This document shows positions 4,039 through 18,481 of a stretch of 27,460 bases of DNA, piece by piece. The stretch covers positions 1-27,460 of the IMG/VR virus record IMGVR_UViG_3300028767_000080. The stretch is one strand, 5' to 3'. A program made the position numbers and the translations under genes. The notes below the pieces were generated by a model, which saw nothing but the letters and a program-made list of their open reading frames with translations, was not told the DNA's origin and did not search any database. Every line of letters begins with the position of its first letter. Positions within the stretch are counted from its first letter, which is position 1. Source of the stretch: a virus (Duplodnaviria; Caudoviricetes).

Positions 4039-4803
4039 ATGGCTAAAAAAGCAAGTGCCCAGAAAGTAGTAAAAACAGCTTATCAGAAAGCTGCTGAAGA
4101 ATTGAACGAAGTTCTTGGATTGACTGATCCCAGTATTGATACCACATTGAGTGACGAAGAGTTGAAACCGTTGTTGGTGGAAGCTATCACCCTGATTGCT
4201 GATGGTGACGAAATCAGTGAAGAAACTCAGGAAGTTGTTGATGAACTGTCCGCTGAAGCCCCGGCTGAAGAAGAGGAGGAAGAAGATGGTGCAGATTTGG
4301 CTGATGAAATCACTGCCTGTAAAAAGGTATCTGAACTTCAGGTTATCATCAAAGCAAACGATGCTTTCAAAAAAGCTGCAAAGAAACTGAACGCAATGAC
4401 AAAAGTTTCTGAATTGAAAGCTACCATGTTGGCTATCGTTGCCCCTGAGGAAGAAGAGGAAGAACAAGCCCCTGCAAAAACTCCTGAAAAACCAAAACCA
4501 GCACCTAAAGCCAATGCAAAGAAAGATGCCAAGCCAGAAGGGGAAAAGAAAGCCAAAGGATTTCCAGCACGTGAAGGCAAATCAAGAATTGTTTGTATTT
4601 GTGATGCTGTAAAAACAATCGGTGCAAAAGGGATGACAATAAAAGCTGTTGCTGAAGCATCCAACAAATTGTACATCAAAGAAGGTGGTGCTGGAAAGGA
4701 TAACGTAAAACAATCACTACATACCTTCAAAGTGATTATGCCAGTACTGGTTGAATTCAACCTGATTAAAGTTGATGGTGAGAACGTTTTTATGGCCAAG
4801 TAA
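4039..4803 (+). CDS. Acidic, low-complexity protein with an SSB-shared helical module and possible C-terminal winged helix
   Basis: Poly-Glu tracts, LADEITACKKVSEL...PEEEEEE module also present twice in 20571-22037, Lys/Pro linker; stop overlaps the radical SAM start (TAATG). Confidence 0.8.
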   Translation: MAKKASAQKVVKTAYQKAAEELNEVLGLTDPSIDTTLSDEELKPLLVEAITLIADGDEISEETQEVVDELSAEAPAEEEEEEDGADLADEITACKKVSELQVIIKANDAFKKAAKKLNAMTKVSELKATMLAIVAPEEEEEEQAPAKTPEKPKPAPKANAKKDAKPEGEKKAKGFPAREGKSRIVCICDAVKTIGAKGMTIKAVAEASNKLYIKEGGAGKDNVKQSLHTFKVIMPVLVEFNLIKVDGENVFMAK

Positions 4804-5855
4804 TGGGGGAATACAAAAATCCAATAAAGATAAGGGGCACGCATATGACGTGCCCTTTGCCTTTAACATTAGAATCTTACTGGACATGTGAGGCAGATTG
4901 CCTTCATTGTATGGGTAGGAGGTTGAATCAGATATGGGGGAATGAACAAAAATTTACAAACCCTGACAATGTTCATAGAATCCTTACCAATGCATTAAAG
5001 AAAGAAAATACAACACCAACAGCCAAAGCTTTATTTAAAAAGAAAGCTTTTTTTATTGGTAGGAAGGCAGATTCATATCAGCCTATTGAAAAGGAAAAGC
5101 ATATAACACACCAATTGGTTGAGATTTTAAATGAACTTGATTGGCCTTATGTGATCTGTTCTAAATATCAGGAAAACATGGTTGTGGATACTCCCCTGTT
5201 TTTGAATAATAAGAATGCAAATATTTTAGTTGAGATTACAGCAGGAGGAGAATCTGACAGGGAATTGTTTGAATTCAATAGAACAACACCGGTTGAAGAT
5301 AGGTTAAGAATTGCAAGAAAATGGAAACATAGTGGTATGAATGTGGGTGTCCGTGGTGAGCCTTTTATACCCGGTTATCATACCACAGAACAATTTCGGG
5401 ACACCTTAAAGCTGATTAAAAGCTATGGTTTGTTGTCCTACAATATATACAACCTGCACATCAATGAATACACCATGAAACGTATGCATGCTGCAGGTTT
5501 TGATATTGAACGGATATGGGAAATGAATCAGGATGATAGGTGGAAACCTATCCAGAAAAGACTTTGTATGATAGCTGAACAGGAAGGTATAGAGCTTGGC
5601 TGTCCAGATTTCGTAAATGTCCCAAAATGCCACACAAGTACCACAAATACATGTTGTGGTATATCCGTTCCGAATGCCTTTACTTTTAACACACATGCTT
5701 GGCGCAATGAGCTTATAAAAGGGGAAGCCCCGGAAGATGTTTTGAAAAATACTTGGGAGGGGGTAGGAACTGATATAGATTTTAAAATGGCTGAAACAAT
5801 AGTCTATAAAAAAGAGTCAAAAGATTTTTACACCTTTAAAAATGCAGATATATGA
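4803..5855 (+). CDS. Radical SAM protein (SPL/SplB-like), paralog 1
   Basis: CEADCLHC (CxxxCxxC) at 4887-4910, DSYQPIE, VRGEPFIPG and C-terminal TCCG. Confidence 0.85.
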   Translation: MGEYKNPIKIRGTHMTCPLPLTLESYWTCEADCLHCMGRRLNQIWGNEQKFTNPDNVHRILTNALKKENTTPTAKALFKKKAFFIGRKADSYQPIEKEKHITHQLVEILNELDWPYVICSKYQENMVVDTPLFLNNKNANILVEITAGGESDRELFEFNRTTPVEDRLRIARKWKHSGMNVGVRGEPFIPGYHTTEQFRDTLKLIKSYGLLSYNIYNLHINEYTMKRMHAAGFDIERIWEMNQDDRWKPIQKRLCMIAEQEGIELGCPDFVNVPKCHTSTTNTCCGISVPNAFTFNTHAWRNELIKGEAPEDVLKNTWEGVGTDIDFKMAETIVYKKESKDFYTFKNADI

Positions 5856-6568
5856 TTTACACAATAGGAACCACAGAACTGCATACCACCAGTGAAGAAG
5901 AAAGTGTTGATAAAGGTTCACCAAATCAGGTTGTAGGCTGGAGGGATATGGTGGAAACTTGTTACACATTATTTGCTGTATGTCAAAATATTACTTTTAA
6001 AAAACCCCCATTTATAGTTGATGGTATTTCAAGAGCAGGATGGTGGGGAGCTTGTTTCAGAAATATTTGGCCTGATTGTAAAATCCATTTGAATGAAGCC
6101 GAAAAACATTGTCTGGATACACTCAAAAGAAACTTCCCAAAGGACAAAATAACAAGCAATAGCATTAAGGAGTGGTCACCACCAACGTGTGATTTAGCTA
6201 TGATTGATTTTGACTTTTTTACTTTAAAGAAAGCCGAAAAAGAATGGGTGGATGTGTTACAAAGATGGGCTGCTGCTGCAAAGTATTTAATAATAGTTGA
6301 TGGTGCCTGTTTTGGCTTTAAGTTTGGAAATCTTAAAAGTTACAACTGCAGTAATGAAATTGAATATTATGATTTGCTTAACGAATTTATCAAACACAAT
6401 ATCCCCGGAAAAAGAATCACCCAAATAAGCAAATTTACCAATGCTGCCACTGTTGTTATTGAAGATGTGACCAAAGAAAACAAAAAAGATAAAATCAAGC
6501 ATATTCCCGCTTTTAGAAACATCCAAATAACAAAGAACAAATTCAAACAACCAAAACCTTTATTTTAA
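5852..6568 (+). CDS. Putative class I SAM-dependent methyltransferase-fold protein
   Basis: IVDGISRAGWWG (motif I-like), IHLNEAEKHCLDTLKRNF (motif II-like), CDLAMIDF; ends QPKPLF. Confidence 0.55.
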   Translation: MIYTIGTTELHTTSEEESVDKGSPNQVVGWRDMVETCYTLFAVCQNITFKKPPFIVDGISRAGWWGACFRNIWPDCKIHLNEAEKHCLDTLKRNFPKDKITSNSIKEWSPPTCDLAMIDFDFFTLKKAEKEWVDVLQRWAAAAKYLIIVDGACFGFKFGNLKSYNCSNEIEYYDLLNEFIKHNIPGKRITQISKFTNAATVVIEDVTKENKKDKIKHIPAFRNIQITKNKFKQPKPLF

Positions 6569-7584
6569 TGAATATAAATCCTGAGTGGGAAGAGGTACTT
6601 GATCAACTGAATTTTTTAGAGCTTGGTGGTGATTTAGGTTCAGTTGATCAAATATGTATTGATACTTTACATGGATCCATGTTCGGTTTGAATTATCGTT
6701 ATACAACACTTGAAGAGGTATTTAAAACACATAAACAGGATTTGTTAAAATACTCTATTCAAAGAATAAAAGAACTTACAAAAGAAAACAATTTTCAATT
6801 CAAAAAAAGAGCCATATCACGCTGTCAGGTTGGATTTGGTACATTTGGGTGGAAGTATGACAGTAAGTTAATTGAAACAGCTATAACATGTGGTGTTTCC
6901 CTTATAGATACTGCTGAGGGATATGGATATGGAAAGGTGGAAACTATATTGGGGGGTATTTTATCCGGGCAAGAAAATCCACCATCAATTTATACCAAAG
7001 TCAGAAGGGATCATATGAGCCCAAAAGCTTTACCTGAGGCTGTAAAAAGAAGTGTGCAAAAACTTCATGCAATCCCATTTGAACAGCTTCATTTCCCACA
7101 TGACAAGTTTAGTGACTCAGCTATAAAAATATTGTCAAATTTACAATGCTTAGGTAAAATAAAAGGGCTTGGCCTTGGTAACTGTTCAATTGATATGATT
7201 GAACAATCCCAAAGGATTTTAACTGAATATAATGGAACACCATTAACATCAATTCAGATTTCCTTTAGTTTATTAAATCAAAGAGCTACAAACACTATAA
7301 TTCCATATTGTCAAGAACGTGGGATATTAATTTTAGCATACAGCCCATTGGGGCAGGATTTTAAAAAGCTTCAGACACCATTTTTGAAAAAGATAGCTAA
7401 AAAATATTCAGCAACAGAATCCCAAATTGCACTCAGCTGGATATTATCTTTCCACGGGGTGGTTCCTATTCCGGCAACAAATAATATTGAACATTTAAAG
7501 CAAAATATTAAAAGTAATGATTTAAAGTTAGATGCTGATGATGTACTGAAACTTTCTAATTATTATAAAAATTTGTATATATAA
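6568..7584 (+). CDS. Aldo/keto reductase with an ~80-aa N-terminal extension
   Basis: VGFGT, IDTAEGYG, IYTKV, QLHFP (Asp/Tyr/Lys/His tetrad), AYSPLG, QIALSW, PIPAT...HLKQN. Confidence 0.92.
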   Translation: MNINPEWEEVLDQLNFLELGGDLGSVDQICIDTLHGSMFGLNYRYTTLEEVFKTHKQDLLKYSIQRIKELTKENNFQFKKRAISRCQVGFGTFGWKYDSKLIETAITCGVSLIDTAEGYGYGKVETILGGILSGQENPPSIYTKVRRDHMSPKALPEAVKRSVQKLHAIPFEQLHFPHDKFSDSAIKILSNLQCLGKIKGLGLGNCSIDMIEQSQRILTEYNGTPLTSIQISFSLLNQRATNTIIPYCQERGILILAYSPLGQDFKKLQTPFLKKIAKKYSATESQIALSWILSFHGVVPIPATNNIEHLKQNIKSNDLKLDADDVLKLSNYYKNLYI

Positions 7585-7596
7585 ACTTTTAGGATT

Positions 7597-8592
7597 ATGG
7601 ATTTGAAATATGAAGATTTAGATTATTGGGCACTAAGGAAGCTGATTGCCCGGGTTGTACCCCGCATCACTCAACTGGTATCCTCCAGACGTAAAGCACA
7701 TGCTGTGCAGGAAAAGGGCAGGAAAAAGAATTATAGTCAATTCAATCTCCGTCACAATGAATGGCGTAAACAGGAAAGGTTATTGAATACAGAGGAAATT
7801 AACAGCTTCCTTGAAATATCCATCCGGGCTGCTGCCTGTCCTATGCCTTTTAACATGGATGTGTGGGATGGGCTTGTTTGTATTGCTAAAGGGCAACGAA
7901 TAACAACAAATAAAGGAAAAATTCCAATTGAAGAAGTTATTGTTGGAGATATTGTTTTGTCGTATAATGAAGCTACAAAAGAAACGGAATGGAAGGAGGT
8001 TTTAAAAACAACCAAATCAATAAAAGAAGATATTATTGAAATGGGGACTTCTTTGGGTTTATTGAGATTGACCCCTGATCACAATATTTTTACCCAACGG
8101 GGATGGATTGAAGCTGCTTATGTGGATATTTATGATACCATTTATACATATGAAGAAGGGATAAAAGGAATTATTGGCGTTCCTGTGGATACTTATTATT
8201 ATTTGGATGAGGAGCCAACAGAGGTGTACGATGTAACCGTACAAGATAATCCAAACTTCTTTGCTGAAGGGATGCTGGTTCATAATTGTCCTTTTGCCTG
8301 CATTTATTGCTTTCCTTCCGATACTAAAATCATGATGGTTGACGGTACGGAGAAAGTGATTGAAAGAATATTGGTTGGGGATAGGGTAATATCTTTTAAT
8401 GAGACAACAAAACAACTTGAACCCGCTGTTGTAACTCAGCCAATGAAACGACATTATAATAAAGAATTGATCTGTATAGAAACAGAGGATGGGAAAGTGC
8501 TAAAAATGACACCAGAACATCCGATATATACACAAAGAGGGTGGATTGAAGCAAAAGGGTTAACAGAGAAAGATGAGGTGTTGATATGGTAA
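7597..8592 (+). CDS. Radical SAM paralog 2, N-terminal part: extein, mini-intein, CPFACIY, then the N-fragment of a split intein
   Basis: CPMPFNMD matches CPLPLTLE of paralog 1; two Hint N-termini (CIAKG, CFPSD), TPDH/TPEH block B motifs and a VHN/C junction. Confidence 0.88.
   Translation: MDLKYEDLDYWALRKLIARVVPRITQLVSSRRKAHAVQEKGRKKNYSQFNLRHNEWRKQERLLNTEEINSFLEISIRAAACPMPFNMDVWDGLVCIAKGQRITTNKGKIPIEEVIVGDIVLSYNEATKETEWKEVLKTTKSIKEDIIEMGTSLGLLRLTPDHNIFTQRGWIEAAYVDIYDTIYTYEEGIKGIIGVPVDTYYYLDEEPTEVYDVTVQDNPNFFAEGMLVHNCPFACIYCFPSDTKIMMVDGTEKVIERILVGDRVISFNETTKQLEPAVVTQPMKRHYNKELICIETEDGKVLKMTPEHPIYTQRGWIEAKGLTEKDEVLIW
7879..8286 (+). mobile_element. Mini-intein (136 aa, no endonuclease) in radical SAM paralog 2
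   Basis: Starts CIAKG, block B LTPDH, ends VYDVTV...NFFAEGMLVHN with Cys at +1. Confidence 0.92.
8308..8589 (+). mobile_element. Split intein N-fragment (94 aa)
   Basis: CFPSDTKI...MTPEHPIYTQRGWIEAKGLTEKDEVLIW then stop, at the usual end of the N-terminal splicing region. Confidence 0.85.
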
Positions 8593-9305
8593 CTTGTAAC
8601 TATTGTGGTAAAAAGTTTGTCTGTATAACTAATACTCATTTGAAACGGCATAATCTTAACCGGGAAGTGTATTTGAAACTTTACCCTGATTCAGAATTAA
8701 CAAGTAAAGAACACAGAGAACACCAACACGATGCTTTAATGGGTAAGAACGTTGGAAATGTACGAAAGGATGCCCGAAAGAGAATGAATTCAAATAATCC
8801 AATGAAAGATCAAAAAATTGCTACTAAAATGGGTAATGTAAGGAAAGTTAAAATAGCAACAGGAGAAATTGACGTCATGAGTAATTTCAATCATTTACCT
8901 ACCAATCATGAAAAACATTTAATTTATTGGTTTGCTGAATGGGGTATTCCTTTACAGTACGTGGGGGATGGAAAAGTAATGATTGGGGGGCTTTGTCCTG
9001 ATTTTATTAATGAGGATTTGAAAATCATTCTTGAATTGAATCTCAATTTTACTTCCCAGCCAAGGAATGAAATGAATGAAAAAGAAAGGATTTACAATTC
9101 ATTAGGCTACAAAGTAATTTGGGTTACTAAAATGTTAAAATCTTATGTGAAATCATGGGTGTGTCCTTTTTTCAACGGAGGCTTAAAATCAAAACGTATT
9201 ATCAAGATTTGGAAAGAGAATAACAATAAAGGCAGGAAACAGGTTTACAACATGGAAGTAACTCCAAACAACACCTATGTAGCGAATGGAATTGTTGTCC
9301 ATAAT
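8586..9305 (+). mobile_element. Split intein C-fragment carrying an N-terminal homing-endonuclease-like domain
   Basis: CxxC...HLKRH finger, PTNHE...CPDF...IILE...GYKVIWV (Vsr/DUF559-like), then blocks F/G at about 9183-9305 ending HN. Confidence 0.8.
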
Positions 9306-10433
9306 TGCTTTGCAAATGCTTTCCGGGCTTCTCTATACACCGCATTCTTCGATAATAGTAAAACGATGGGATTTCGCCACTGCAATCCAACCTACTACAA
9401 ACAGGAAATGGATAAAATGGATAAGTACCGGGGAATGGGTGAAGCTGAAAAGAAAAAACTATCTGGAATCAATAAAGCTTATGCATATGATATGCCTTTG
9501 CGTTTGGGTATCCGGTTTGAGGATTTCCTGAAAGATGAGGGCAAAGAAAAGGTATCACTGGAAATGTTACAATACTTGAAAAAAATAGAGTACCCGGTGA
9601 TGATTAATAGCAAATCAGGATTGCCCAGTGAAGGAAAGTACTTGGAAGCATTGGCTGGAAATAAAGCCAAAGCAGCTATTCATATCACCCTGATCAGTAA
9701 CAATGATGAAATATTAAGTAAGCTTGAGCCCGGTGCTCCTCCTTATGCTGAAAGATTGAAAGCTTTAAAAGTTCTGAGTAAAGCCGGGATCAGGGTTGTT
9801 GCCCGCATTGAACCTTATCTTTTCCTGCTGAATGATGAGAAGGAGGATACAGAACGATATATTGAAGAAGTTTGGGATGCAGGTGTAAGAAATATCACTT
9901 TTGATACTTATTCCTATACTGCCCAAAATCAGGGTATCCGTCAAAGTTTCATAAACAAAGGATTTGATTATGACCGTTTGTTTACAGCCGGGTGTGATAG
10001 TCAACCACTGGGAAGCCTATTGTTGGGTAAATTCATGGAATTGTTCCGGGCTAAAGGATTCAGTTGTAGTACCTTTGATATGGGTAATGTACACACCAAT
10101 GATGATGCTATTTGTTGTGAGGTTGGGGATTGGTTTGAGGGAGGCTTCAATTATGGCAGTACTGTTATGGCAGCCCGTTTCATTAAAGACCGGGGAAAGC
10201 TTTTCACCACTTGGAGTGATTATGAAAGCTGGGTTGAAGATCATGGGGGCTTCCTGACTGAAGAGATACGAATGGATGTAAAACACTTGTGGAACTTGGA
10301 AGGGAATTTTGCATACAGCCATAAATGGGCTGTGGGCTTGGTTCCAGTAGGAAGGAATGAAGATGGCCTTGTGTGGGCTATTGATACAACAGTGGGGGAT
10401 TATCGTATGGACTTATTAAATTCAATTATATGA
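8586..10433 (+). CDS. Radical SAM paralog 2, C-terminal part: Zn finger/Vsr-like endonuclease, intein C-fragment, then a 375-aa C-extein
   Basis: VYNMEVTPNNTYVANGIVVHN/CFANAF junction at 9305/9306; the extein has SKLEPGAP, RLKALKVL, VARIEP and ICCE, which are SPL-like features. Confidence 0.88.
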   Translation: MVTCNYCGKKFVCITNTHLKRHNLNREVYLKLYPDSELTSKEHREHQHDALMGKNVGNVRKDARKRMNSNNPMKDQKIATKMGNVRKVKIATGEIDVMSNFNHLPTNHEKHLIYWFAEWGIPLQYVGDGKVMIGGLCPDFINEDLKIILELNLNFTSQPRNEMNEKERIYNSLGYKVIWVTKMLKSYVKSWVCPFFNGGLKSKRIIKIWKENNNKGRKQVYNMEVTPNNTYVANGIVVHNCFANAFRASLYTAFFDNSKTMGFRHCNPTYYKQEMDKMDKYRGMGEAEKKKLSGINKAYAYDMPLRLGIRFEDFLKDEGKEKVSLEMLQYLKKIEYPVMINSKSGLPSEGKYLEALAGNKAKAAIHITLISNNDEILSKLEPGAPPYAERLKALKVLSKAGIRVVARIEPYLFLLNDEKEDTERYIEEVWDAGVRNITFDTYSYTAQNQGIRQSFINKGFDYDRLFTAGCDSQPLGSLLLGKFMELFRAKGFSCSTFDMGNVHTNDDAICCEVGDWFEGGFNYGSTVMAARFIKDRGKLFTTWSDYESWVEDHGGFLTEEIRMDVKHLWNLEGNFAYSHKWAVGLVPVGRNEDGLVWAIDTTVGDYRMDLLNSII

Positions 10434-11209
10434 CAACAAAAATTTCAGATTTAGTTGAAGGCATATTTGCGAATGCAGTAGCCTTGGACCAAAATGGAGG
10501 TCTTAAAAATACCATTTACGCAATCGGCAGTGAAGTGTTCATAATGAATTATGATCATACTGTTTTGCTGCGCTTTCGGTTAAGAAGGTCAGAAGCAAGT
10601 TTTGATAGCCCTATCAGCTTCAAGGCAAATGATTATGACAGTAATGAGTTTGAGCAGAAAGATGGCAGGGTGATCTTTTATTCTGGTAACAAGGGATACA
10701 TCAAGAAAAAGACCTGCGGAACAACAGACCTGACCCCGGAAGAGGTAAAAGATTTGTTTGAAGGTTATATGGAGTTATCTGAGGAAACCCTTACAGCCAC
10801 TTTATCCAAAGACATATTGGAATTAATGGATGATAGCCTGTCTCACATAGAATTTACAGGTATAACTGGAAAAGGTGTTAAATTGACCCAAAGGAACATT
10901 TACAGTGGGGGAGTGATTGAGGTGGAAAAGAAGTCAGACGGCTTTTTCAAAGATGAACTTGAATCTGACTTTGGCCCAATCGGTATCAAGACCAGTGACT
11001 TCCAAGCACTGTTTACTTTTCAGAACCAATTGAAATTCTCTTTCCCCGGTTCTATGGATGAAAACAACTTTATTGTTGTGAAGTCTATTGAAAGTAAAAG
11101 GGATATGGTAGGCATAATTGCTTCCTGTTTGTATGATGAGATCATTAAAATCAAGGAAGTAAAACGTTCAGAATCAAAGAAAGCTAAACCAATGTTAAAA
11201 CGTAAATAA
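10430..11209 (+). CDS. Possible PCNA/gp45-like sliding-clamp-fold protein
   Basis: 259 aa; FIMNYDHTVLLRFRLRRSEASF resembles the PCNA strand pattern (AMDSSHVALVSL.LRSEGF); two-domain size. Confidence 0.45.
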   Translation: MTTKISDLVEGIFANAVALDQNGGLKNTIYAIGSEVFIMNYDHTVLLRFRLRRSEASFDSPISFKANDYDSNEFEQKDGRVIFYSGNKGYIKKKTCGTTDLTPEEVKDLFEGYMELSEETLTATLSKDILELMDDSLSHIEFTGITGKGVKLTQRNIYSGGVIEVEKKSDGFFKDELESDFGPIGIKTSDFQALFTFQNQLKFSFPGSMDENNFIVVKSIESKRDMVGIIASCLYDEIIKIKEVKRSESKKAKPMLKRK

Positions 11210-11211
11210 TC

Positions 11212-11346
11212 ATGGGTGGAAAAAGCAGGAAAAGTGGTGGAATTTCAAGGAAATTGATTGCCCAAATTAAAGCCGGGAATGGTACCAAATGTAATGGAAC
11301 GAAAAAACCCGTTAAAGATGAAACAGCAAAACCTTTGTTTGATTAG
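11212..11346 (+). CDS. Unannotated 44-aa Gly/Lys-rich basic peptide
   Basis: MGGKSRKSGGISRKLIAQIKAGNGTKCNGTKKPVKDETAKPLFD; ATG 2 nt after the upstream stop, in the taatcATG context used by other genes; below the ORF-track cut-off. Confidence 0.7.
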   Translation: MGGKSRKSGGISRKLIAQIKAGNGTKCNGTKKPVKDETAKPLFD

Positions 11347-12118
11347 GGAGTATCTGAAAAGGGCTGAACAATTAAGAATACAACCCAACTTCTTCATGTC
11401 TGAAGCTTATCTGATATTAATGGATGTGGAAGGAGTTAAAAATGATTTTTGGATTTGGATTGCCACTGAGGATGGTTGTTTACTTCCTCCGTTACCCCTA
11501 TACGGCAAAGAATCCCTTTGGTTTCCAAATATTACGGATATATGGGCTTGTTTTCCAGTAAATAATGAAGGTTATAAATTAATGGCAGGAAAACAAGAGT
11601 TTCTGGATTATCAATATATCTTTGATCCAAAAGCTTTCCAATCTATGGTTGGAGGTAAATGGGAAACCTTTAGAAAGAATTGCCGGAAGGTATTGAAAAA
11701 TGATCCTGAGGTTCAATATTTATCTGAACCTTTAGATGAATCAGAAGTCCCTATGTTTATAGGAAACTGGTTGGAAAGAAAGGAAGAAACTGTTGAAGAT
11801 GGTTTGTTTTTAGCTGATTTCGCTTTCTTATCTAACAATGAACATATAGGCAGGAAATTCCTGTATTTGGATGGTAAATTAGCTGCGATAAATGCTTGGG
11901 ATAGTAATTACATGTACATCAATTATCGTGTCTGTATGTGTGATGAAACTGTGCCATATATCAGTGAATTTGCCCGGTTTAAATTCTACCAGCAATGGTG
12001 GTATTCAAATGTATTAGTGAATGATGGGGGTTGCTTGGGTTTAGCCTCCTTGGAAAAATTCAAAGATAAAATGAACCCAATTGAAAAAATTCCAATTTAC
12101 ACTTTAAACCTAAAATAA
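11318..12118 (+). CDS. DUF2156 / LPG-synthase C-terminal-like GNAT (aminoacyl)transferase
   Basis: DYQYIFD...MVGGKWETFRKN, LDGKLAA, VNDGGCLGLASLEKFKDKMNP; start moved from TTG 11258 to ATG 11318. Confidence 0.65.
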   Translation: MKQQNLCLIREYLKRAEQLRIQPNFFMSEAYLILMDVEGVKNDFWIWIATEDGCLLPPLPLYGKESLWFPNITDIWACFPVNNEGYKLMAGKQEFLDYQYIFDPKAFQSMVGGKWETFRKNCRKVLKNDPEVQYLSEPLDESEVPMFIGNWLERKEETVEDGLFLADFAFLSNNEHIGRKFLYLDGKLAAINAWDSNYMYINYRVCMCDETVPYISEFARFKFYQQWWYSNVLVNDGGCLGLASLEKFKDKMNPIEKIPIYTLNLK

Positions 12119-12388: not shown

Positions 12389-13387
12389 ATGAAAAAAGCA
12401 GATTTACAAAAAGCTCTTGAGATAGCCAAACCGGGGCTGAGTAACAAAGAACAGCAGATTGAACAAACCAATCATTTTGCTTTCATTGCAGGTCGTGTCG
12501 TAACGTATAACGATGAAATCAGTGTATCCCATCCGGTTGAAGGATTGGAGATTGAAGGGGCTGTAAAAGCCGATGTATTGTATTCAATCATCAGTAAGAT
12601 CAAGGCTGAAGATATTGATTTATCAGTTAACGAAAGTGAAGTGGTGATTAAGTCAGGTAAAATGACAGCCAGTATTGCCCTTCAACATGAAGTATCCCTG
12701 CCTTTGGAGGAGGTTTCTGATATGGGTAAATTCAAAAAGATACCAGACAATCTCATAACCTTATTACATCTGGCTGCCGGGGCTTGCCCCAGTGGTATGG
12801 ATAGACCTGTATTGACCTGTGTAAATGTTATGGATAACGTTGTACAGGCTTCTGATGGATTTAAGATCATTGAAGGTACTTTGAGTTCAAAACTTCCGGT
12901 TGAAAGCTTTCTTATCCCTGCACCTGCAGCTATGAAAGTTTGTACCATGAATCCCAATCGGATCAGTGTGACTGAAAGTTGGGTTCATTTCAAGAATAGT
13001 GAAGGAACTACAATCAGTTGCCGTACATTTGAAGACACTTATCCTGCGATTTCCCACATTCTTTCGGTTAAAGGGGATAAAGTTACATTACCAACCGTGA
13101 TGCCTGAGATATTGGAACGTGCGTGGGTATTTGCTGTCCGGGAAAGTGCTTCATTAGAGGTACTGAATGTTATTTTGACTAAAAAGAAAATCACTGTAAA
13201 AAGTCAAAGTGATTATGGTAAATTTGAAGAATCTGCTATTATTAAGTTTGATGGGGCAGAATCAGAATTTTCCATTAGCCCTTACCTCCTAAAAGGTATC
13301 CTGAAACAAACGCTGGAATGTATTATCGGTTCAGATCGTTTGAAATTTGAAGGTTCTGATTGGGTTTGTATAACAGCTTTGAAATAA
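12389..13387 (+). CDS. dnaN: DNA polymerase III beta-like sliding clamp
   Basis: 332 aa; RPVLTCV, ASDGFKI, FLIP, YPAI and ISPYLL motifs typical of beta clamps. Confidence 0.85.
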   Translation: MKKADLQKALEIAKPGLSNKEQQIEQTNHFAFIAGRVVTYNDEISVSHPVEGLEIEGAVKADVLYSIISKIKAEDIDLSVNESEVVIKSGKMTASIALQHEVSLPLEEVSDMGKFKKIPDNLITLLHLAAGACPSGMDRPVLTCVNVMDNVVQASDGFKIIEGTLSSKLPVESFLIPAPAAMKVCTMNPNRISVTESWVHFKNSEGTTISCRTFEDTYPAISHILSVKGDKVTLPTVMPEILERAWVFAVRESASLEVLNVILTKKKITVKSQSDYGKFEESAIIKFDGAESEFSISPYLLKGILKQTLECIIGSDRLKFEGSDWVCITALK

Positions 13388-14136
13388 TGTTACGAAGACA
13401 AGGAACAAAGGATGGGATTAATGCTAAAATCAGGGTTTATTTCCCATCTCATACTTCTTATGTTGAGCCCTTCTTTGGAGCTGGGGGTATGTTTTTTAAT
13501 AAACCTTTAGTCAAGTATAATTGCGTTAATGATAACGATTCAGAAGTCTTTAACCTGTTTCAAGTTATTCAAAATCATTTAGAGGAATTTAAACAACAAT
13601 TTGAAGATACCCCTATTAATGAAGATTTGCTGAGGCATTGGAAGGAAAACAAAGAAATAGAACCAATAATGAAAGCTGTACGTTTTGTTTTCTTGTCAAA
13701 TTATACTTTATTTGGGAAAATGGGAACGTTGAACAGTTCTGTAAATAGTAATCACAAAAGCTTATATTTAGTTGATTTAAAACATATTCAATCCCATATT
13801 AAAAATACCCATTTCTTTAATCATGATTTTCGTGACTTTTTGAGAATAATTGCGATTGAAGAATGTTCAACCTTCATTTATGCTGACCCTCCTTATATTA
13901 CAACGAATGCTAATTACACTGGATTCACTGAACAAGACAGCTTGGATTTATTTGATAGCCTTGAAGCTAAAAAATGTAAATGGGCTATGAGTGAATTTGA
14001 TAATCCTTTTATATTGAATCAAGCCAAAGACCGGGGGCTGAATGTTATCATTATCGGTGAACGTAGAAACATCAACAATCGCAGAACTGAAATTTTAGTT
14101 ACCAATTACAAAACACCAAACAAGAGCTTAATATGA
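13387..14136 (+). CDS. dam: Dam-like (D12 class) N6-adenine DNA methyltransferase
   Basis: YVEPFFGAG motif I, DPPY motif IV, EILVTNY; start at ATG 13387 overlapping the clamp stop. Sequence specificity unknown. Confidence 0.9.
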   Translation: MLRRQGTKDGINAKIRVYFPSHTSYVEPFFGAGGMFFNKPLVKYNCVNDNDSEVFNLFQVIQNHLEEFKQQFEDTPINEDLLRHWKENKEIEPIMKAVRFVFLSNYTLFGKMGTLNSSVNSNHKSLYLVDLKHIQSHIKNTHFFNHDFRDFLRIIAIEECSTFIYADPPYITTNANYTGFTEQDSLDLFDSLEAKKCKWAMSEFDNPFILNQAKDRGLNVIIIGERRNINNRRTEILVTNYKTPNKSLI

Positions 14137-15356
14137 ACGAAGGTTTTTTCACAAAGAAGGAAACTGAAAGTGTCAGCAGACCGGATGGTAGACCCCGCAC
14201 ATGTATAAGCTGTGGAATTTACCGGACAAGCAAAAACCCCAAGATGAAACCTTTCGGAAATTTCAAAAAAGGAATCATGAATATTGGGGCTTGTCCTGAG
14301 GAGGTGGATGACTCCTGCGGAAAACCTTTCCATGGTAGGGATGGAAAAACAATAAAGACAGCTTACCACAGGATGGGTATAGACTTATTTGAGGACTGCA
14401 TCAACCTGAATGCTGTAAATTGTTTTTGCTCTACCCAAGAAGGGGAACGCAGGGAACCAACCCCAAATGAGGTAGAAACCTGCCGCAAATCTATTTTAGC
14501 CTATATTAAGCAATACAAGCCACGAATCATCGTACTATTTGGTGAATCTGCTTTACTTAGTGTTATAGGTCATAGATGGAAGGAAGGGGCAGAATCCATG
14601 GAAAAGTGGCGTGGTTTCTGTATCCCTGATCAAGAGTACAAAGCATGGTTGATCCCGGTCTTTGATCCCAACTTCCTGAATCCCAAAAAACCTGAAATTG
14701 AAACTATCTGGATTCAGGATTTATCACAGGTAAAAGAAAAGTTGAATGAAGAGTTCCCTAACCACGTTGACCCGGTTATTGATATTGTTGACGATTTTAG
14801 CATGTTTGATGATATCGTTCATGGTACTATTGCTTTTGATTATGAAACTACAGGATTGAAACCTCACGCTGAAGGGCATCGTATTATTTGTGTTTCAGTG
14901 GCTGATAGTGAAGATCATGTTTGGGTAGGTAGAATGCCGGAAAGCAGATCAGGAAAACAACCGTTCAAAAGGCTTCTACAATCCAATGCCATATTGAAGA
15001 TGGCCCACAATATGAAATTTGAGGATACTTGGACAAATGTAGCTTTAAAGTTTCCTATAAATCATTGGTGGTGGGATAGTATGCAAGCTGCCCATGTGTT
15101 AGATAACAGGGAGGGGATAACAGGATTGAAATTTCAGACTTATGTGAATTTTGGGGTATCTGATTACAGCACTGAGGTCAGCCCCTACCTGAAAGCCAAA
15201 GATGATAAAAATGCAAATTCAATTAATCGGATTGAGGAGCTTTTGAAGTTTCCGGGAGGGGAACATAAATTGCTAACTTATTGCGGTCTGGATAGTATCT
15301 ATGAATTCAGGCTGGCTATGAAACAACAATCTATTATGAATTATTTACCTTTTTAA
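14133..15356 (+). CDS. Family 4 UDG-like domain fused to a 3'-5' exonuclease (N-terminal part of a split family A polymerase)
   Basis: CISC, GKPFHG.DG, NAVNC, PTPNEVETC (Fe-S UDG fold); ExoI FDYETTGL, ExoII HNMKFE, ExoIII YCGLDS. Confidence 0.88.
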   Translation: MNEGFFTKKETESVSRPDGRPRTCISCGIYRTSKNPKMKPFGNFKKGIMNIGACPEEVDDSCGKPFHGRDGKTIKTAYHRMGIDLFEDCINLNAVNCFCSTQEGERREPTPNEVETCRKSILAYIKQYKPRIIVLFGESALLSVIGHRWKEGAESMEKWRGFCIPDQEYKAWLIPVFDPNFLNPKKPEIETIWIQDLSQVKEKLNEEFPNHVDPVIDIVDDFSMFDDIVHGTIAFDYETTGLKPHAEGHRIICVSVADSEDHVWVGRMPESRSGKQPFKRLLQSNAILKMAHNMKFEDTWTNVALKFPINHWWWDSMQAAHVLDNREGITGLKFQTYVNFGVSDYSTEVSPYLKAKDDKNANSINRIEELLKFPGGEHKLLTYCGLDSIYEFRLAMKQQSIMNYLPF

Positions 15357-15359
15357 ATT

Positions 15360-16034
15360 ATGAAAATAGGAACTAAATCAGTGTTATACGGAGCTCATTG
15401 CTTTTTTATCCATCCAATCTTTGTAATGGTAGCTTGGTGGAAGTTGTACGGTTTTCCAAATAATATTCAATATTGGATTGCATTTTTTGTACACGATCTT
15501 GGATATTGGGGAAAACCTAATATGGACGGCCCCGAAGGAGAAACACATGTTGAACTTGGAGCGAATATTATGGGTTGGTTATTTGATTTCCATATTGGAA
15601 CGTTACGTGGAGAATTCTATAAATTAACTCACGGCCAAATATGGATGGCTTGTTATGAATGGGTATATGTAGAAAAATACTCATGGAAATGGGCTGAATT
15701 TTCAAAATACCATTCAAGATTTTATGCCAAAAAAGATAAAGCACAATATTCAAAACTTTGCGTGGCTGATAAATTAGCTATCTGTATTGAACCAATGTGG
15801 TTGTATTTATTTAGAGTTAATTTGACAGGGGAAGTGAATGAATACATGGCTAAAGCTGCCGACAAAGAAGGTAAAAATGCTTCAATGAAATTAACAACGG
15901 TAAATCAAAAAGAATGGTTTAAAAGCATGGGGGCTTATCTGCGTGAATGGGTTGAAACTCATAAAGATTTGAAACCAGATACGTGGACACCAGAGTACAA
16001 AGAATCTATTAATGATCAAGGGGTATGGAAATAA
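15360..16034 (+). CDS. HD-domain-like phosphohydrolase
   Basis: H...VHDLG...H...YHSR...ADKL pattern. Confidence 0.6.
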   Translation: MKIGTKSVLYGAHCFFIHPIFVMVAWWKLYGFPNNIQYWIAFFVHDLGYWGKPNMDGPEGETHVELGANIMGWLFDFHIGTLRGEFYKLTHGQIWMACYEWVYVEKYSWKWAEFSKYHSRFYAKKDKAQYSKLCVADKLAICIEPMWLYLFRVNLTGEVNEYMAKAADKEGKNASMKLTTVNQKEWFKSMGAYLREWVETHKDLKPDTWTPEYKESINDQGVWK

Positions 16035-18481
16035 ACCCAAAGACAAGTGAAGCTTATGACCTTATGCATCAAGGTATATTAGCACTGGCAAAGGCGGAAA
16101 GGCAGGGATTTCGGATTGATGTTGAATATTTGGAAAACAAAAAATCCCACCTAACACGCAAAATATCCCGGCTGGAAAGTCAATTTGAAAATAGTACTTT
16201 TTACAAGAAATGGCAGCGTCAGAGTACCACTAAAATCAACCCCGGGTCAGGGGATCAGCTTGGAAAGTATCTTTACACCACTTTGGGACTAAAGCCACAG
16301 AAACTAACAAAAACTGGTAAAGGTTCAACGGATGAAGAAGCCTTGGGACTTTTGAATTTACCGGAACTGAATGCCATATTAGAAGTAAAGAAACTGAAGA
16401 AAATCCGGGATACTTATTTGGATGGTTTTCTGAGGGAGCAAATCAATGGACAGATTCATCCTTTCTATAACCTGAATACAACGGTAACATACCGTTCATG
16501 TATTGCTAAAGGAACGAAAATATTGGCTGTTAGAGATTTTTACAGGTATCCGAATGGAGTTCCTATTGAAAAGATCAAGGAAGGGGATTTTGTTTATTGT
16601 TTTGATGATAATTTAAACCCTGCTATTCAAAAAGTACTTTGGTCTGGAAAAACCGGACATAAAGAAGTTATCAGGATTCATTATTCAGCGAAAGGTGGGG
16701 GAGGAAAAGGATTTTTGGACGTTACCCCTGAGCATCTTATACGCGTAATTAATGGGGAATACGTTGAAGCCCAGAATTTAGTTGGGGATTTTAGAAAGCC
16801 TGAAGAAAGTAAAAGACTTGGAAAAATAAGAACTTTGTCTTGTAAACGGGTTGATGTTAATTTAAATTTTACCGGTCATGTAAAAGGGGGTAAAGGTGTT
16901 CTTGAACATCGTTTGGTCTATTCCCAGTTAATTGGGGATTTAAAGCCTGCGGAAGTTGTTCATCATAAGGATGAGGATCATTTCAATCATACACCATCTA
17001 ATTTAAGAAAAATGACTTTAAAACGTCATTCATATCTCCATTCTTTAAAAGTATCTGATGAAATAAAACAAAATAGGATTAAGACGTTGAAAGAAAATCG
17101 ACATTTGATTACCTATACTTCAGGAGCTGAAAATCCTTTGAGTATGAACTTGACAAAATTTCAATGTTACCGATTATTGGCACAAAATTCAGGAAAGTTA
17201 AAAGGGATTAATTTTGATTTTGGTACAATTAAAAAGTATTTAGAAATAAATGGAATAGACCCTTTTAAAGTTCGATTGCGTTTTGATAAACATGGGGAAT
17301 ATATTTGGAAATCTAATTTAGAAAAAATATCTATTTTAGGTCGTTCTGAGGTTTCTAAATTATTAGGGCATAATCATTATCGTTTGTTAGAATTATATTC
17401 GATTTATGGGATTGATGAAAAGCGTAAATGGGGAAATCAATTTGGTGCATTTAAACCCGGAAATCACCAAATCACAAAGATTGAATGGGTAAACAAAAAG
17501 GTAGATGTTTATGATATTGAAGTAGAAAAATACCATAATTTCTTTGCTAATGAAATTTGTGTACACAATTCATCAAATAACCCGAATTTCCAAAACCTTC
17601 CTGCCCGAGATGAGGAGTCAATGAGGATGGTTAAAGATGCTATCTTTCCACGTTTAGGGCATCAATTGTTGGAAGTGGATTTCAAGGGTATAGAGGTTGC
17701 TGTGAATGCCTGTATAAATAAAGACCCGGTATTGATACATGACATCCTTCACGGAGATATGCACGGGGATATGGCTAAACAGATTTTCAAAGTACCTAAT
17801 TTTGATAAAAATACACCAACTCATAATACCCTACGTTCAGCAGCAAAGAATGGGTTTGTATTTCCTGAGTTTTATGGGGATTATTTCAAAAGCTGTTCTG
17901 AAAACCTTGCTACACGCTGGGGAAAGCTCCCCCAAACTAAATGGTCAATGGGGCAGGGGATAGCTTTTGAGAAAACATTTTTATCAAACCATTTAATCAG
18001 CCAAGGAATAACATCATTTTCCTCCTTCACAAAGCATATTGAAAATATTGAAAATGAGTTCTGGCATGAACGTTTTATGGTGTATGGTAAATGGAAGGAT
18101 ACTTGGTTCAGGAAGTACCAAAAGAACGGATTCATTGACCTACCCACAGGCTTCCGGTGTAGTGGGGTTATGAACAAGAAACAGGTTTGTAACTACCCGG
18201 GGCAGAATGGGGGTTTTATGTGCCTGTTGTGGTCTTTGATTGAGGTGACTGATATTCTTGAACAAGAACAAAGGGATACCAAAGTGGTGGGGCAAATCCA
18301 TGATAGTTTGATACTTGATGTACATCCTGATGAATTATCTCATATCCTTGAAGTAGTGAAATACGTTACCTGTACAGCCCTTCAAAAACACTTTGATTGG
18401 ATAATTTTACCCATGGAAGTGGATGCTTCCATCTCAGGTATAGACCAATCTTGGGCAACCAAGGAAAAGTGTAAAATATAA
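16025..18481 (+). CDS. polA: Family A DNA polymerase, polymerase domain only, intein-containing (461 aa after splicing)
   Basis: STDEEAL, TYRS/SSNNPNFQN, motif A EVDFKGIE, motif B RSAAKNGFVFPEFYG, motif C QIHDS. Confidence 0.93.
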   Translation: MEINPKTSEAYDLMHQGILALAKAERQGFRIDVEYLENKKSHLTRKISRLESQFENSTFYKKWQRQSTTKINPGSGDQLGKYLYTTLGLKPQKLTKTGKGSTDEEALGLLNLPELNAILEVKKLKKIRDTYLDGFLREQINGQIHPFYNLNTTVTYRSCIAKGTKILAVRDFYRYPNGVPIEKIKEGDFVYCFDDNLNPAIQKVLWSGKTGHKEVIRIHYSAKGGGGKGFLDVTPEHLIRVINGEYVEAQNLVGDFRKPEESKRLGKIRTLSCKRVDVNLNFTGHVKGGKGVLEHRLVYSQLIGDLKPAEVVHHKDEDHFNHTPSNLRKMTLKRHSYLHSLKVSDEIKQNRIKTLKENRHLITYTSGAENPLSMNLTKFQCYRLLAQNSGKLKGINFDFGTIKKYLEINGIDPFKVRLRFDKHGEYIWKSNLEKISILGRSEVSKLLGHNHYRLLELYSIYGIDEKRKWGNQFGAFKPGNHQITKIEWVNKKVDVYDIEVEKYHNFFANEICVHNSSNNPNFQNLPARDEESMRMVKDAIFPRLGHQLLEVDFKGIEVAVNACINKDPVLIHDILHGDMHGDMAKQIFKVPNFDKNTPTHNTLRSAAKNGFVFPEFYGDYFKSCSENLATRWGKLPQTKWSMGQGIAFEKTFLSNHLISQGITSFSSFTKHIENIENEFWHERFMVYGKWKDTWFRKYQKNGFIDLPTGFRCSGVMNKKQVCNYPGQNGGFMCLLWSLIEVTDILEQEQRDTKVVGQIHDSLILDVHPDELSHILEVVKYVTCTALQKHFDWIILPMEVDASISGIDQSWATKEKCKI
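16499..17569 (+). mobile_element. Intein (357 aa) with HNH homing endonuclease
   Basis: CIAKG start, VTPEH, EHRLV...VVHHKDEDHFNHTPSNL HNH, VYDIEV...NFFANEICVHN/S end. Confidence 0.93.

What the first reader, a model, noticed from the sequence alone, without database searches (positions are those of the whole stretch)
7879..9308. Two inteins interrupt a single CxxxCxxC Fe-S motif
Seen: removing 7879-8286 and 8308-9305 gives ...DGLV-CPFACIY-CFANAF..., a 476-aa radical SAM. The first and third cluster cysteines are the +1 nucleophiles of the two inteins, separated by a 7-residue micro-extein. The enzyme cannot bind its cluster until both have spliced. Inference: possible redox- or metal-gated activation, and evidence that the gene is important, since inteins persist in conserved essential sites.
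Basis: partly seen in the sequence, partly recalled or inferred. Interest (0 to 1): 0.85.

Follow-up and report, generated by a model that had tools for sequence, protein, structure and literature searches.

The report
Two inteins inside one iron-sulfur motif
In a phage enzyme gene, the three-cysteine iron-sulfur motif is interrupted by two self-splicing protein inserts only seven residues apart, the second split across two overlapping genes, so the enzyme would have to be stitched together from two proteins; relatives suggest the inserts are likely selfish mobile elements rather than a built-in redox switch.

Summary
Observation confirmed. A phage radical-SAM gene (SPL/Rv2578c-like, not a member) carries a cis mini-intein before cluster Cys1 and a second intein before Cys3, 7 residues apart. 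The exteins sum to 476 aa and match an intein-free 476-aa homologue (448 of 476 residues identical). Intein 2 is naturally split: its C-half is fused behind a zinc-finger/Vsr-like nuclease in a second, overlapping ORF, and this junction recurs in diverged phages. 102 of 120 listed homologues are empty. Intein states are scattered over the extein tree, intein b is more alike between phages than its exteins are (88% vs 64%), and five double alleles are not one clade. No double seen whole keeps two nucleases. Best reading: two selfish homing elements stacked on neighbouring conserved cysteines, matured by one cis and one trans splice. Redox gating is chemically possible (Cys-3/Cys1, as in P. abyssi MoaA) but unsupported as a function. 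The window's nuclease lacks the family's catalytic His. The parts are known; double occupancy with a half-fused split intein was not found in print. This scan noted a mirror version (e1-6122375) and another double (e1-5476228) earlier on other DNA. New variant; interest 0.5.

The parts
7597..7878 (+). N-extein of the radical SAM protein (94 aa), start of ORF1
   Evidence: 87/94 identical to intein-free P0002
7837..7839 (+). Invariant Cys81, 13 residues before the motif; empty here but a third intein site in homologue P0122
7879..8286 (+). Intein a: cis mini-intein, 136 aa, Cys1, TxxH, terminal His-Asn, no nuclease; +1 residue is cluster Cys1
   Evidence: Spl DnaX mini-intein E 5e-12
8287..8307 (+). 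7-residue micro-extein CPFACIY (cluster Cys1 and Cys2); C-extein of intein a and N-extein of intein b; its second Cys is Cys-3 of intein b
   Evidence: 7/7 identical to P0002
8308..8592 (+). N-half of naturally split intein b (94 aa, Cys1, TxxH) and ORF1 stop
   Evidence: (TIGR01445 42.2 bits vs cut-off 24.5)
8575..8592 (+). Shine-Dalgarno-like GAGGTG, 5-nt spacer, and 7-nt ORF1/ORF2 overlap ATGGTAA
   Evidence: same in L016 and L065
8586..9182 (+). C2H2-like zinc finger + Vsr/EDxHD-fold nuclease, in frame with the intein C-half; general-base His absent
9183..9305 (+). C-half of intein b (41 aa, ends His-Asn); +1 residue is cluster Cys3
   Evidence: (TIGR01443 22.5 bits vs cut-off 15.6)
9306..10433 (+). 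C-extein (375 aa), radical SAM barrel
4803..5855 (+). Paralogous intein-free SPL-like radical SAM gene with the same C-x13-CxxxCxxC spacing; fixed partner of the host gene
10430..12118 (+). Two fixed downstream partners: 259-aa unknown protein and 286-aa protein weakly like LPG_synthase_C (aminoacyl-tRNA transferase type)
   Evidence: 28 of 30 locus groups each; 14 of 26 members hit PF09924 at E up to 0.1, best 1e-6

Best explanation
Two inteins sit before the first and third cysteines of one radical-SAM iron-sulfur motif, the second split over two overlapping genes; they are likely selfish mobile elements that invaded these neighbouring conserved sites separately, and the enzyme would be matured by one cis and one trans splice. 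Steps: (1, inferred) ORF2 is translated by re-initiation at its own Shine-Dalgarno site, giving two chains. (2, predicted) Intein a splices in cis, using the micro-extein's first Cys as +1 nucleophile. (3, predicted) The two halves of intein b associate and splice in trans, using the C-extein's first Cys; the nuclease leaves still attached to the intein C-half. (4, follows from radical SAM chemistry) Only then can CPFACIYC bind the [4Fe-4S] cluster. (5, inferred) Each intein spread by homing with a Vsr-like nuclease that fractured it. Where both met in one allele, one lost its nuclease and re-fused to a cis mini-intein, which keeps the product to two chains. Cysteine codons in an invariant motif give both a +1 nucleophile and a conserved target, which explains the clustering without any regulatory role. 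The host enzyme likely acts on phage DNA bases (inferred from neighbours only).
For: Empty alleles dominate: of the 120 listed hits (549 found), 102 empty, 7 split-a C-halves, 7 split-b C-halves (window included), 1 cis a, 1 cis b, 2 N-truncated. Sister exteins on short branches differ in state: P0002/window, P0088/P0135, P0103/P0102, P0031/P0144, P0065/P0129. Intein b is more alike than its exteins: window vs P0127 N-half 88% but N-extein 64%; vs P0007 C-half 93% but C-extein 74%. Five double alleles (window, P0124, P0125, P0126, L047/49/51/53) need 5 changes on each of the intein-a, intein-b and extein trees; starred branches force at least 2, 4 and 3. The full fractured-gene series occurs: free-standing nuclease (L017, L044, L050, L052), nuclease fused to the N-half (L045/P0153, P0150) or C-half (window + 6), nuclease lost but still split (L041), re-fused minis that keep a scar (P0102 retains the nuclease's last helix; P0125 retains the C-half's start Met). 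All five doubles have one cis mini-intein. Cys1 and TxxH are kept in 22/22 a and 32/32 b inteins. ESMFold2 pairs the b halves at 0.85 vs best control 0.00 (mark reached by 51 of 78 solved and 2 of 108 mismatched pairs; runs agree in 99% of contacts; partner pLDDT at least 83), probably from likeness to solved inteins.
Against: No splicing, cleavage or expression data. The window's nuclease lacks the EDxHD general-base His (present at the aligned position in only 1 of 7 site-b nucleases and one residue off in another, against 3 of 3 other family nucleases checked (two site-a, one site-c)), so current homing by this copy is doubtful although its intein looks recently moved. Patchy presence could partly be repeated precise loss. 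Trees rest on about 90 columns, most forks are unresolved, and the extein tree is the quick search. Several N- and C-halves are paired only by equal contig length (P0127/P0007, P0125/P0023), not by DNA. The nuclease state of P0124 and P0126 was not seen. A doubly split allele's middle piece (about 140 aa) is below the 182-aa floor, so 'one is always a cis mini' is biased (Fisher 4/5 vs 1/8, p = 0.03).
Confidence: 0.75

Rival explanations
1. The inteins are kept as a redox or metal gate: a Cys-3/Cys1 disulfide at intein b (and metal binding by the free cysteines) would hold the oxygen-labile enzyme as a precursor until conditions are reducing.
For: Cys-3 and Cys1 of intein b have the spacing reported for the P. 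abyssi MoaA intein redox trap (passages of PMC3922620 and PMC10663303). Fe-S enzymes are oxygen-labile (established knowledge). Site b always has this Cys-3 because it is cluster Cys2.
Against: The geometry is forced on any intein before the third Cys. 102 of 120 homologues, including a 94%-identical one, do without it. No clade has fixed either intein. Doubles are not clearly enriched: 2 of 7 split-b alleles carry a against 8 of 118 overall, p = 0.08. Intein a has no Cys at -3.
Confidence: 0.12
2. The two inteins now move as one cassette: the single nuclease cuts empty alleles and the mini-intein 21 bp away is co-converted.
For: Both window inteins group with those of one distant extein clade (a with P0124/P0140/P0143, support 88/93; b with P0124/P0127, 93/76), while the window's extein groups with empty P0002. 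21 bp is inside the ~60-bp footprint reported for I-Bth0305I (PMC3239194 passages). Compatible with, and an extension of, the best explanation.
Against: Intein a is only 66% identical to that of P0124 while b is 84%, which fits two separate arrivals. Neither branch reaches starred support. The window's nuclease lacks the catalytic His. Turgeman-Grott 2023 found no co-homing in haloarchaeal MCM, though both inteins there have nucleases (PMC10643990).
Confidence: 0.25
3. The break in intein b is a programmed -1 frameshift or an assembly error, so the precursor is one chain with two cis inteins.
For: The ORFs overlap in the -1 frame; an in-frame long intein b exists in P0121.
Against: ORF2's frame has a stop four codons before its ATG, leaving no room for a slippery site. 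The Shine-Dalgarno site and overlap are conserved in three diverged phages. Independent contigs agree. No stable structure at the junction (z = +0.7). 26 other proteins made of N-extein plus a b N-half end at the same place.
Confidence: 0.03
4. The double allele is a dead end: a 7-residue extein between two intein domains blocks splicing, and the gene is non-functional.
For: Each intein has the other as its immediate flank, and flanking residues affect splicing (established knowledge).
Against: All catalytic residues and the extein frame are intact. Five diverged doubles exist. The stretch is near-identical over several runs. The gene is a fixed member of its module.
Confidence: 0.05

Closest known systems
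[quoted passage not shown] 2009, PMC2677866)
   Same: Phage enzyme broken by a split intein at the usual break point (N-half 94 aa, C-half 41 aa), with a Vsr-like nuclease between the halves on the same strand; opposite net charge of the halves (-3, +6).
   Different: The nuclease is not free-standing but fused in frame to the C-half; a 7-nt overlap replaces the 27-51-nt spacer; the host is a radical SAM enzyme, not among the hosts listed; a second intein lies 7 residues upstream (their DnaE-1 locus has part of an additional intein, spacing not given in what I read).
Pyrococcus abyssi MoaA intein redox trap (Callahan et al. 2011; seen only through PMC3922620 and PMC10663303)
   Same: Cys at -3 next to intein Cys1 in an oxygen-sensitive host. 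That MoaA is a radical SAM enzyme and that the site is in its CxxxCxxC motif is recalled, not read.
   Different: Single cis intein in a cellular enzyme; disulfide shown there, untested here.
Intein-containing SplB/COG1533 and Rv2578c-family radical SAM proteins (Novikova 2016, PMC4760082: 48 inteins in Actinobacteria; NCBIfam NF038136)
   Same: Inteins in SPL-like radical SAM proteins; P0002 hits Rv2578c and PA0069 models at E 4e-12.
   Different: Scores far below family cut-offs (45.9 vs 430); I did not check the insertion site or number in those proteins; here phage, two sites, split forms.
Neighbouring double inteins in haloarchaeal MCM (PMC10643990) and DnaB sites a and c (PMC4760082)
   Same: Several intein sites in one conserved motif region; doubles with one mini-intein are mentioned for T. 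kodakarensis mcm and M. smegmatis dnaB.
   Different: DnaB a and c are two residues apart, but the section read reports co-occupancy only for a + b. Here both sites, 21 bp apart, are filled, and one intein is split.
I-Bth0305I / EDxHD homing endonucleases (PMC3239194; PDB 3R3P)
   Same: Best fold match of the ORF2 nuclease model (E 0.005, probability 1.0, TM 0.59-0.66 on target); N-terminal DNA-binding part plus C-terminal Vsr-like domain.
   Different: The His general base is missing in the window's copy; encoded in a split intein, not a group I intron.
Phage M6 / PaMx11 thymidine hypermodification clusters (PMC8989533)
   Same: SPL-like radical SAM beside PLP-, FAD- and GNAT-type enzymes (PLP enzyme in 13 of 26, FAD enzyme in 2 of 26 locus groups).
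   Different: Two radical SAM paralogues; no 5-hmdU kinase or aGPT-Pplase hit among the 37 window ORFs scanned; no tblastn hit of P0002 to any M6-like record in the phage collection.

Membership tests
Radical SAM superfamily | CxxxCxxC motif | tested here: met
   Contiguous in 102 of 120 listed homologues; C95, C99, C102 invariant in 105 aligned
Radical SAM superfamily | Pfam PF04055 and partial TIM-barrel fold | tested here: met
   P0002 29.6 bits vs cut-off 29.5; model pLDDT 87.5; all listed top Foldseek hits are radical SAM enzymes
Radical SAM superfamily | [4Fe-4S] binding and reductive SAM cleavage | not testable with these tools
   needs protein
Spore photoproduct lyase / Rv2578c / PA0069 families | Score above curated cut-off | tested here: not met
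   45.9 vs 430 and 45.8 vs 360; no PF20903 hit for P0002; SPL gives the best query TM among top hits but only 0.37
Class 1 inteins | Cys1, block-B TxxH, terminal His-Asn, Cys+1 | tested here: met
   Both inteins; Cys1 and TxxH in 22/22 and 32/32 relatives
Class 1 inteins | Self-splicing | not testable with these tools
   needs expression
Naturally split inteins | Halves in separate ORFs, conserved beyond one assembly | tested here: met
Fractured genes (Dassa 2009) | Free-standing endonuclease gene between the halves, after a non-coding spacer | tested here: not met
   Fused to the C-half with a 7-nt overlap in the window; met at site a in L017, L044, L047, L050
EDxHD / Vsr-like homing endonucleases | Vsr-like fold | tested here: met
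   (E 7e-5 to the DUF559 nuclease of L017); Foldseek E only 0.005
EDxHD / Vsr-like homing endonucleases | Catalytic His (H213 of I-Bth0305I) | tested here: not met
   Window reads ELNLNFTSQ where site-a nucleases read EFDGHxSH; register from hhalign, not from a structural superposition
EDxHD / Vsr-like homing endonucleases | Cleaves the empty allele | not testable with these tools
   needs assay
MoaA-type redox-trap inteins | Extein Cys-3 beside intein Cys1 | tested here: met
   CIY|C at intein b; absent at intein a
MoaA-type redox-trap inteins | Disulfide blocks splicing | not testable with these tools
   needs assay

The most novel reading that the evidence does not exclude
The pair is a co-homing, order-coupled cassette: one nuclease spreads both inteins, each intein is the other's flank so splicing is ordered, and the trans step is held by the Cys-3/Cys1 disulfide. 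A phage DNA-modifying radical SAM enzyme would then be assembled from two chains only under reducing conditions: a natural two-step AND gate built from selfish parts.
Probability: 0.12. Interest if true: 0.8.

Novelty: new variant of a known kind. Interest (0 to 1): 0.5.

Why it matters
It shows that two inteins can share a 7-residue extein, one working in cis and one in trans, inside a single metal-binding motif. One phage gene family supplies empty, single and double alleles and nearly every stage of the fractured-gene model, including half-fused stages (nuclease on the N-half or on the C-half) and re-fusion scars. That makes two open questions directly testable with natural alleles: whether a mini-intein co-homes with a neighbour's nuclease, and whether redox-trap geometry is adaptive or incidental. 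It also offers dozens of new natural split inteins with Cys+1 junctions.

Tried and rejected
Frameshift or assembly error at 8586-8592: rejected. Intein-free alleles in the same runs: no joint across either intein in 8 laid runs; contigs show presence only. Expression: no RNA holder listed. Cultured relatives: tblastn of P0002 and of the paralogue each gave 1 weak unannotated record among 50,697 phage records. PDB sequence search with the C-extein and with the 105-sequence profile: nothing real. Cellular doubles: pattern scan of GTDB genomes gave 65 matches, none an intein junction; by my reading 30 were one intein-free radical SAM family (mostly Nitrospirota) that naturally reads VHN-C, the rest chance or unrelated; the pattern needs VHN and F/Y, so it can miss others. 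Metagenome scan gave 8 loci; only the window's own allele matched over the inteins. Nuclease relatives in viral contigs: only the 3 near-identical copies. The 259-aa neighbour as a clamp paralogue: hhalign against the window's clamp not significant (E 0.19). The wider search for tandem inteins in other protein families over the 1.84-billion set, and the VIA second look at the nuclease fold, were not obtained, so family-independent frequency and the exact active-site register stay open. Rows dropped or mis-binned: P0164 left out of all trees, P0159 not parsed, P0122 (site c) labelled empty.
Full report
OBSERVATION. The window is part of a phage replication module (helicase loader, DnaB, clamp, PolA, clamp loader, RecA, RuvC); the runs that hold the stretch are labelled peat metagenome. 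ORF1 (7597-8592) encodes a 94-aa N-extein, a 136-aa cis mini-intein (a), the micro-extein CPFACIY and a 94-aa intein N-half (b). ORF2 (8586-10433, -1 frame) encodes a zinc-finger/nuclease of 199 aa, the 41-aa C-half of b and a 375-aa C-extein. The exteins sum to 476 aa. P0002 is an intein-free 476-aa protein identical at 87/94, 7/7 and 354/375 positions with a contiguous CPFACIYC. Both inteins have Cys1, TxxH, His-Asn and Cys+1.

THE SPLIT IS REAL. ORF2's frame is closed four codons before its ATG. GAGGTG-N5-ATGGTAA is the same in the window, L016 and L065, whose C-exteins are 65-66% identical. Contigs of runs X7 and X8, not flagged as the source, bridge the junction without a difference. Six other proteins have ORF2's layout. 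ESMFold2 pairs the halves at 0.85 against a best control of 0.00 (mark reached by 51 of 78 solved and 2 of 108 mismatched pairs; contacts agree 99%; partner pLDDT at least 83); solved inteins exist, so this shows likeness, not binding.

HOST ENZYME. P0002 passes Pfam Radical_SAM narrowly (29.6 vs 29.5). Its model (pLDDT 87.5) matches only radical SAM enzymes, with SPL the best by query TM (0.37). It is far below the Rv2578c and PA0069 cut-offs. The 40 loci fall into 30 groups. A paralogous radical SAM gene lies upstream in 26 of the 26 groups with enough DNA; two downstream genes are present in 28 of 30; between the paralogues lie variable enzymes (PLP 13, aldo-keto reductase 5, the 238-aa unknown 4, FAD 2 of 26). 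One fixed partner resembles LPG_synthase_C weakly (14 of 26 members). This enzyme mix recalls M6/PaMx11 thymidine hypermodification (PMC8989533, passages), so a DNA-base-modifying role is likely but inferred. I noted this; several earlier scan notes seen say the same and are not independent support.

ALLELE SERIES. Of the 120 listed C-extein hits (549 found), 102 are empty, 7 split-a C-halves, 7 split-b C-halves, 1 cis a, 1 cis b and 2 truncated. A search with ORF1 (120 of 220 listed) and two DNA-pattern scans (13 and 16 loci) added the rest. Site a: split with a free-standing DUF559/NUMOD3 nuclease (L017, L044, L050, L052), nuclease fused to the N-half (L045/P0153, P0150), split with no nuclease (L041), cis mini (P0072). 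Site b: split with nuclease on the C-half (window + 6), cis mini (L018/P0102, L056, L059, L067), long in-frame insert (P0121). P0102 keeps the nuclease's last helix between the re-joined halves, and P0125's intein a keeps the C-half's start Met, so these minis derive from split forms (read). A third site, 13 residues upstream, is filled in P0122. Five doubles were seen: window, P0124, P0125, P0126 (cis mini a + N-half of b) and the mirror L047/49/51/53 (split a with free-standing nuclease + cis mini b).

MOBILITY. Short-branch sisters differ in state. The doubles need 5 changes on each tree; starred branches force at least 2 (a, 22 rows), 4 (b, 32 rows) and 3 (extein, 150 rows, quick search). 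These trees use about 90 columns and are mostly unresolved. Doubles are not clearly enriched (2 of 7 vs 8 of 118, p = 0.08). Intein a is cis-mini in 4 of 5 doubles against 1 of 8 singles (p = 0.03), with the bias that a doubly split allele's middle piece was too short for the protein searches; the DNA scan could have shown one and did not in 13 loci.

THE NUCLEASE. Atlas features, hhalign and the fold search agree on a Vsr/DUF559/EDxHD type, the best match being I-Bth0305I (Foldseek E only 0.005). P-D-F, E150, K166-E167, G-Y and W179 are invariant in 7 copies, and pN is below pS against L016 (0.31 vs 0.80) and, less so, L065 (0.28 vs 0.43). But the general-base His (H213, PMC3239194 passages) is absent in the window and four others, present in P0081 and one residue off in P0023. 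The window's copy may be dead, though it cannot be lost by frameshift because it carries the intein C-half. This sits uneasily with the recent-looking transfer and is unexplained.

MECHANISM. Shown: anatomy, motifs, conservation of the split, allele series. Inferred: re-initiation, cis splicing of a, trans splicing of b, cluster binding only afterwards, spread by homing. The simplest account is two selfish elements on adjacent invariant Cys codons (0.75). Co-homing as one cassette is a live extension (0.25): both window inteins group with those of one distant extein clade, but with unstarred support and unequal identity (66% vs 84%). Adaptive redox gating is 0.12: the Cys-3/Cys1 geometry is forced on any intein at the third Cys, and most of the family has none.

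LITERATURE. Read: Dassa 2009 (PMC2677866: abstract, Results parts 1-2 of 3, Discussion part 1 of 2); PMC10643990 (abstract, introduction, passages); PMC4760082 (passages, DnaB/MCM section; supplements not read, and they list intein sites that may include doubles); passages of PMC10663303, PMC3922620, PMC3239194, PMC8989533, PMC3322345 and bioRxiv 10.1101/2025.01.02.630785 (supplements closed). Callahan 2011 was not held. Searches: intein + radical SAM gave 25 papers, none on this by title and abstract start; intein + CxxxCxxC gave 0; tandem/adjacent inteins gave 6. None showed two inteins co-occupying one radical SAM motif, or a nuclease fused to only one half of a split intein. Subscription journals and InBase were not searched. 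Within this scan the mirror layout (e1-6122375), a double three residues apart in an archaeal enzyme (e1-5476228) and single split inteins at Cys1 or Cys3 were noted earlier.

VERDICT. Observation confirmed; interpretation partly supported; new variant of known kinds. Interest 0.5: striking anatomy and a good natural test bed, but every component has a precedent and the regulatory reading has no support beyond geometry.

Noticed in passing
window 16499-17569: 357-aa intein with an in-frame HNH domain in the PolA polymerase ORF (Cys1 ... His-Asn, Ser+1).
   Followed up: no
window 14133-18481: PolA is in two genes (UDG-like + 3'-5' exonuclease 14133-15356; polymerase 16025-18481) with a 224-aa unknown ORF between. 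Many related loci show the same two-gene layout with different spacers; L014, L035 and L036 have one 840-865-aa gene.
   Followed up: partly
window 4803-12118: Conserved module of two SPL-like radical SAM genes, a variable tailoring slot (here a 238-aa unknown and an aldo-keto reductase; elsewhere PLP or FAD enzymes), a 259-aa unknown and an LPG_synthase_C-like protein: candidate DNA-base modification pathway.
   Followed up: partly
P0122 (equivalent to window 7837-7839): Third intein site at the invariant Cys 13 residues before the motif, split, with a DUF559 nuclease fused to the C-half.
   Followed up: partly
P0121: Cis intein b with a ~250-aa low-complexity insert that looks like an alternative reading frame of a nuclease gene; no DNA available to check.
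   Followed up: no
L018:5260-7128 (P0102): Re-fused mini-intein b that keeps the nuclease's last helix; the deletion appears to run between two similar V-x-x-W/V-I-W ends.
   Followed up: partly
L041:1640-3664: Split intein a whose halves are about 160 nt apart with no nuclease gene left (Dassa step III).
   Followed up: partly
L148 around 1801: A different viral radical SAM family also has an intein C-half directly before Cys1 of its motif.
   Followed up: no
window 13360-14136 and 2169-2555: D12-class adenine methyltransferase inserted between clamp and PolA; free-standing HNH gene after DnaB.
   Followed up: no
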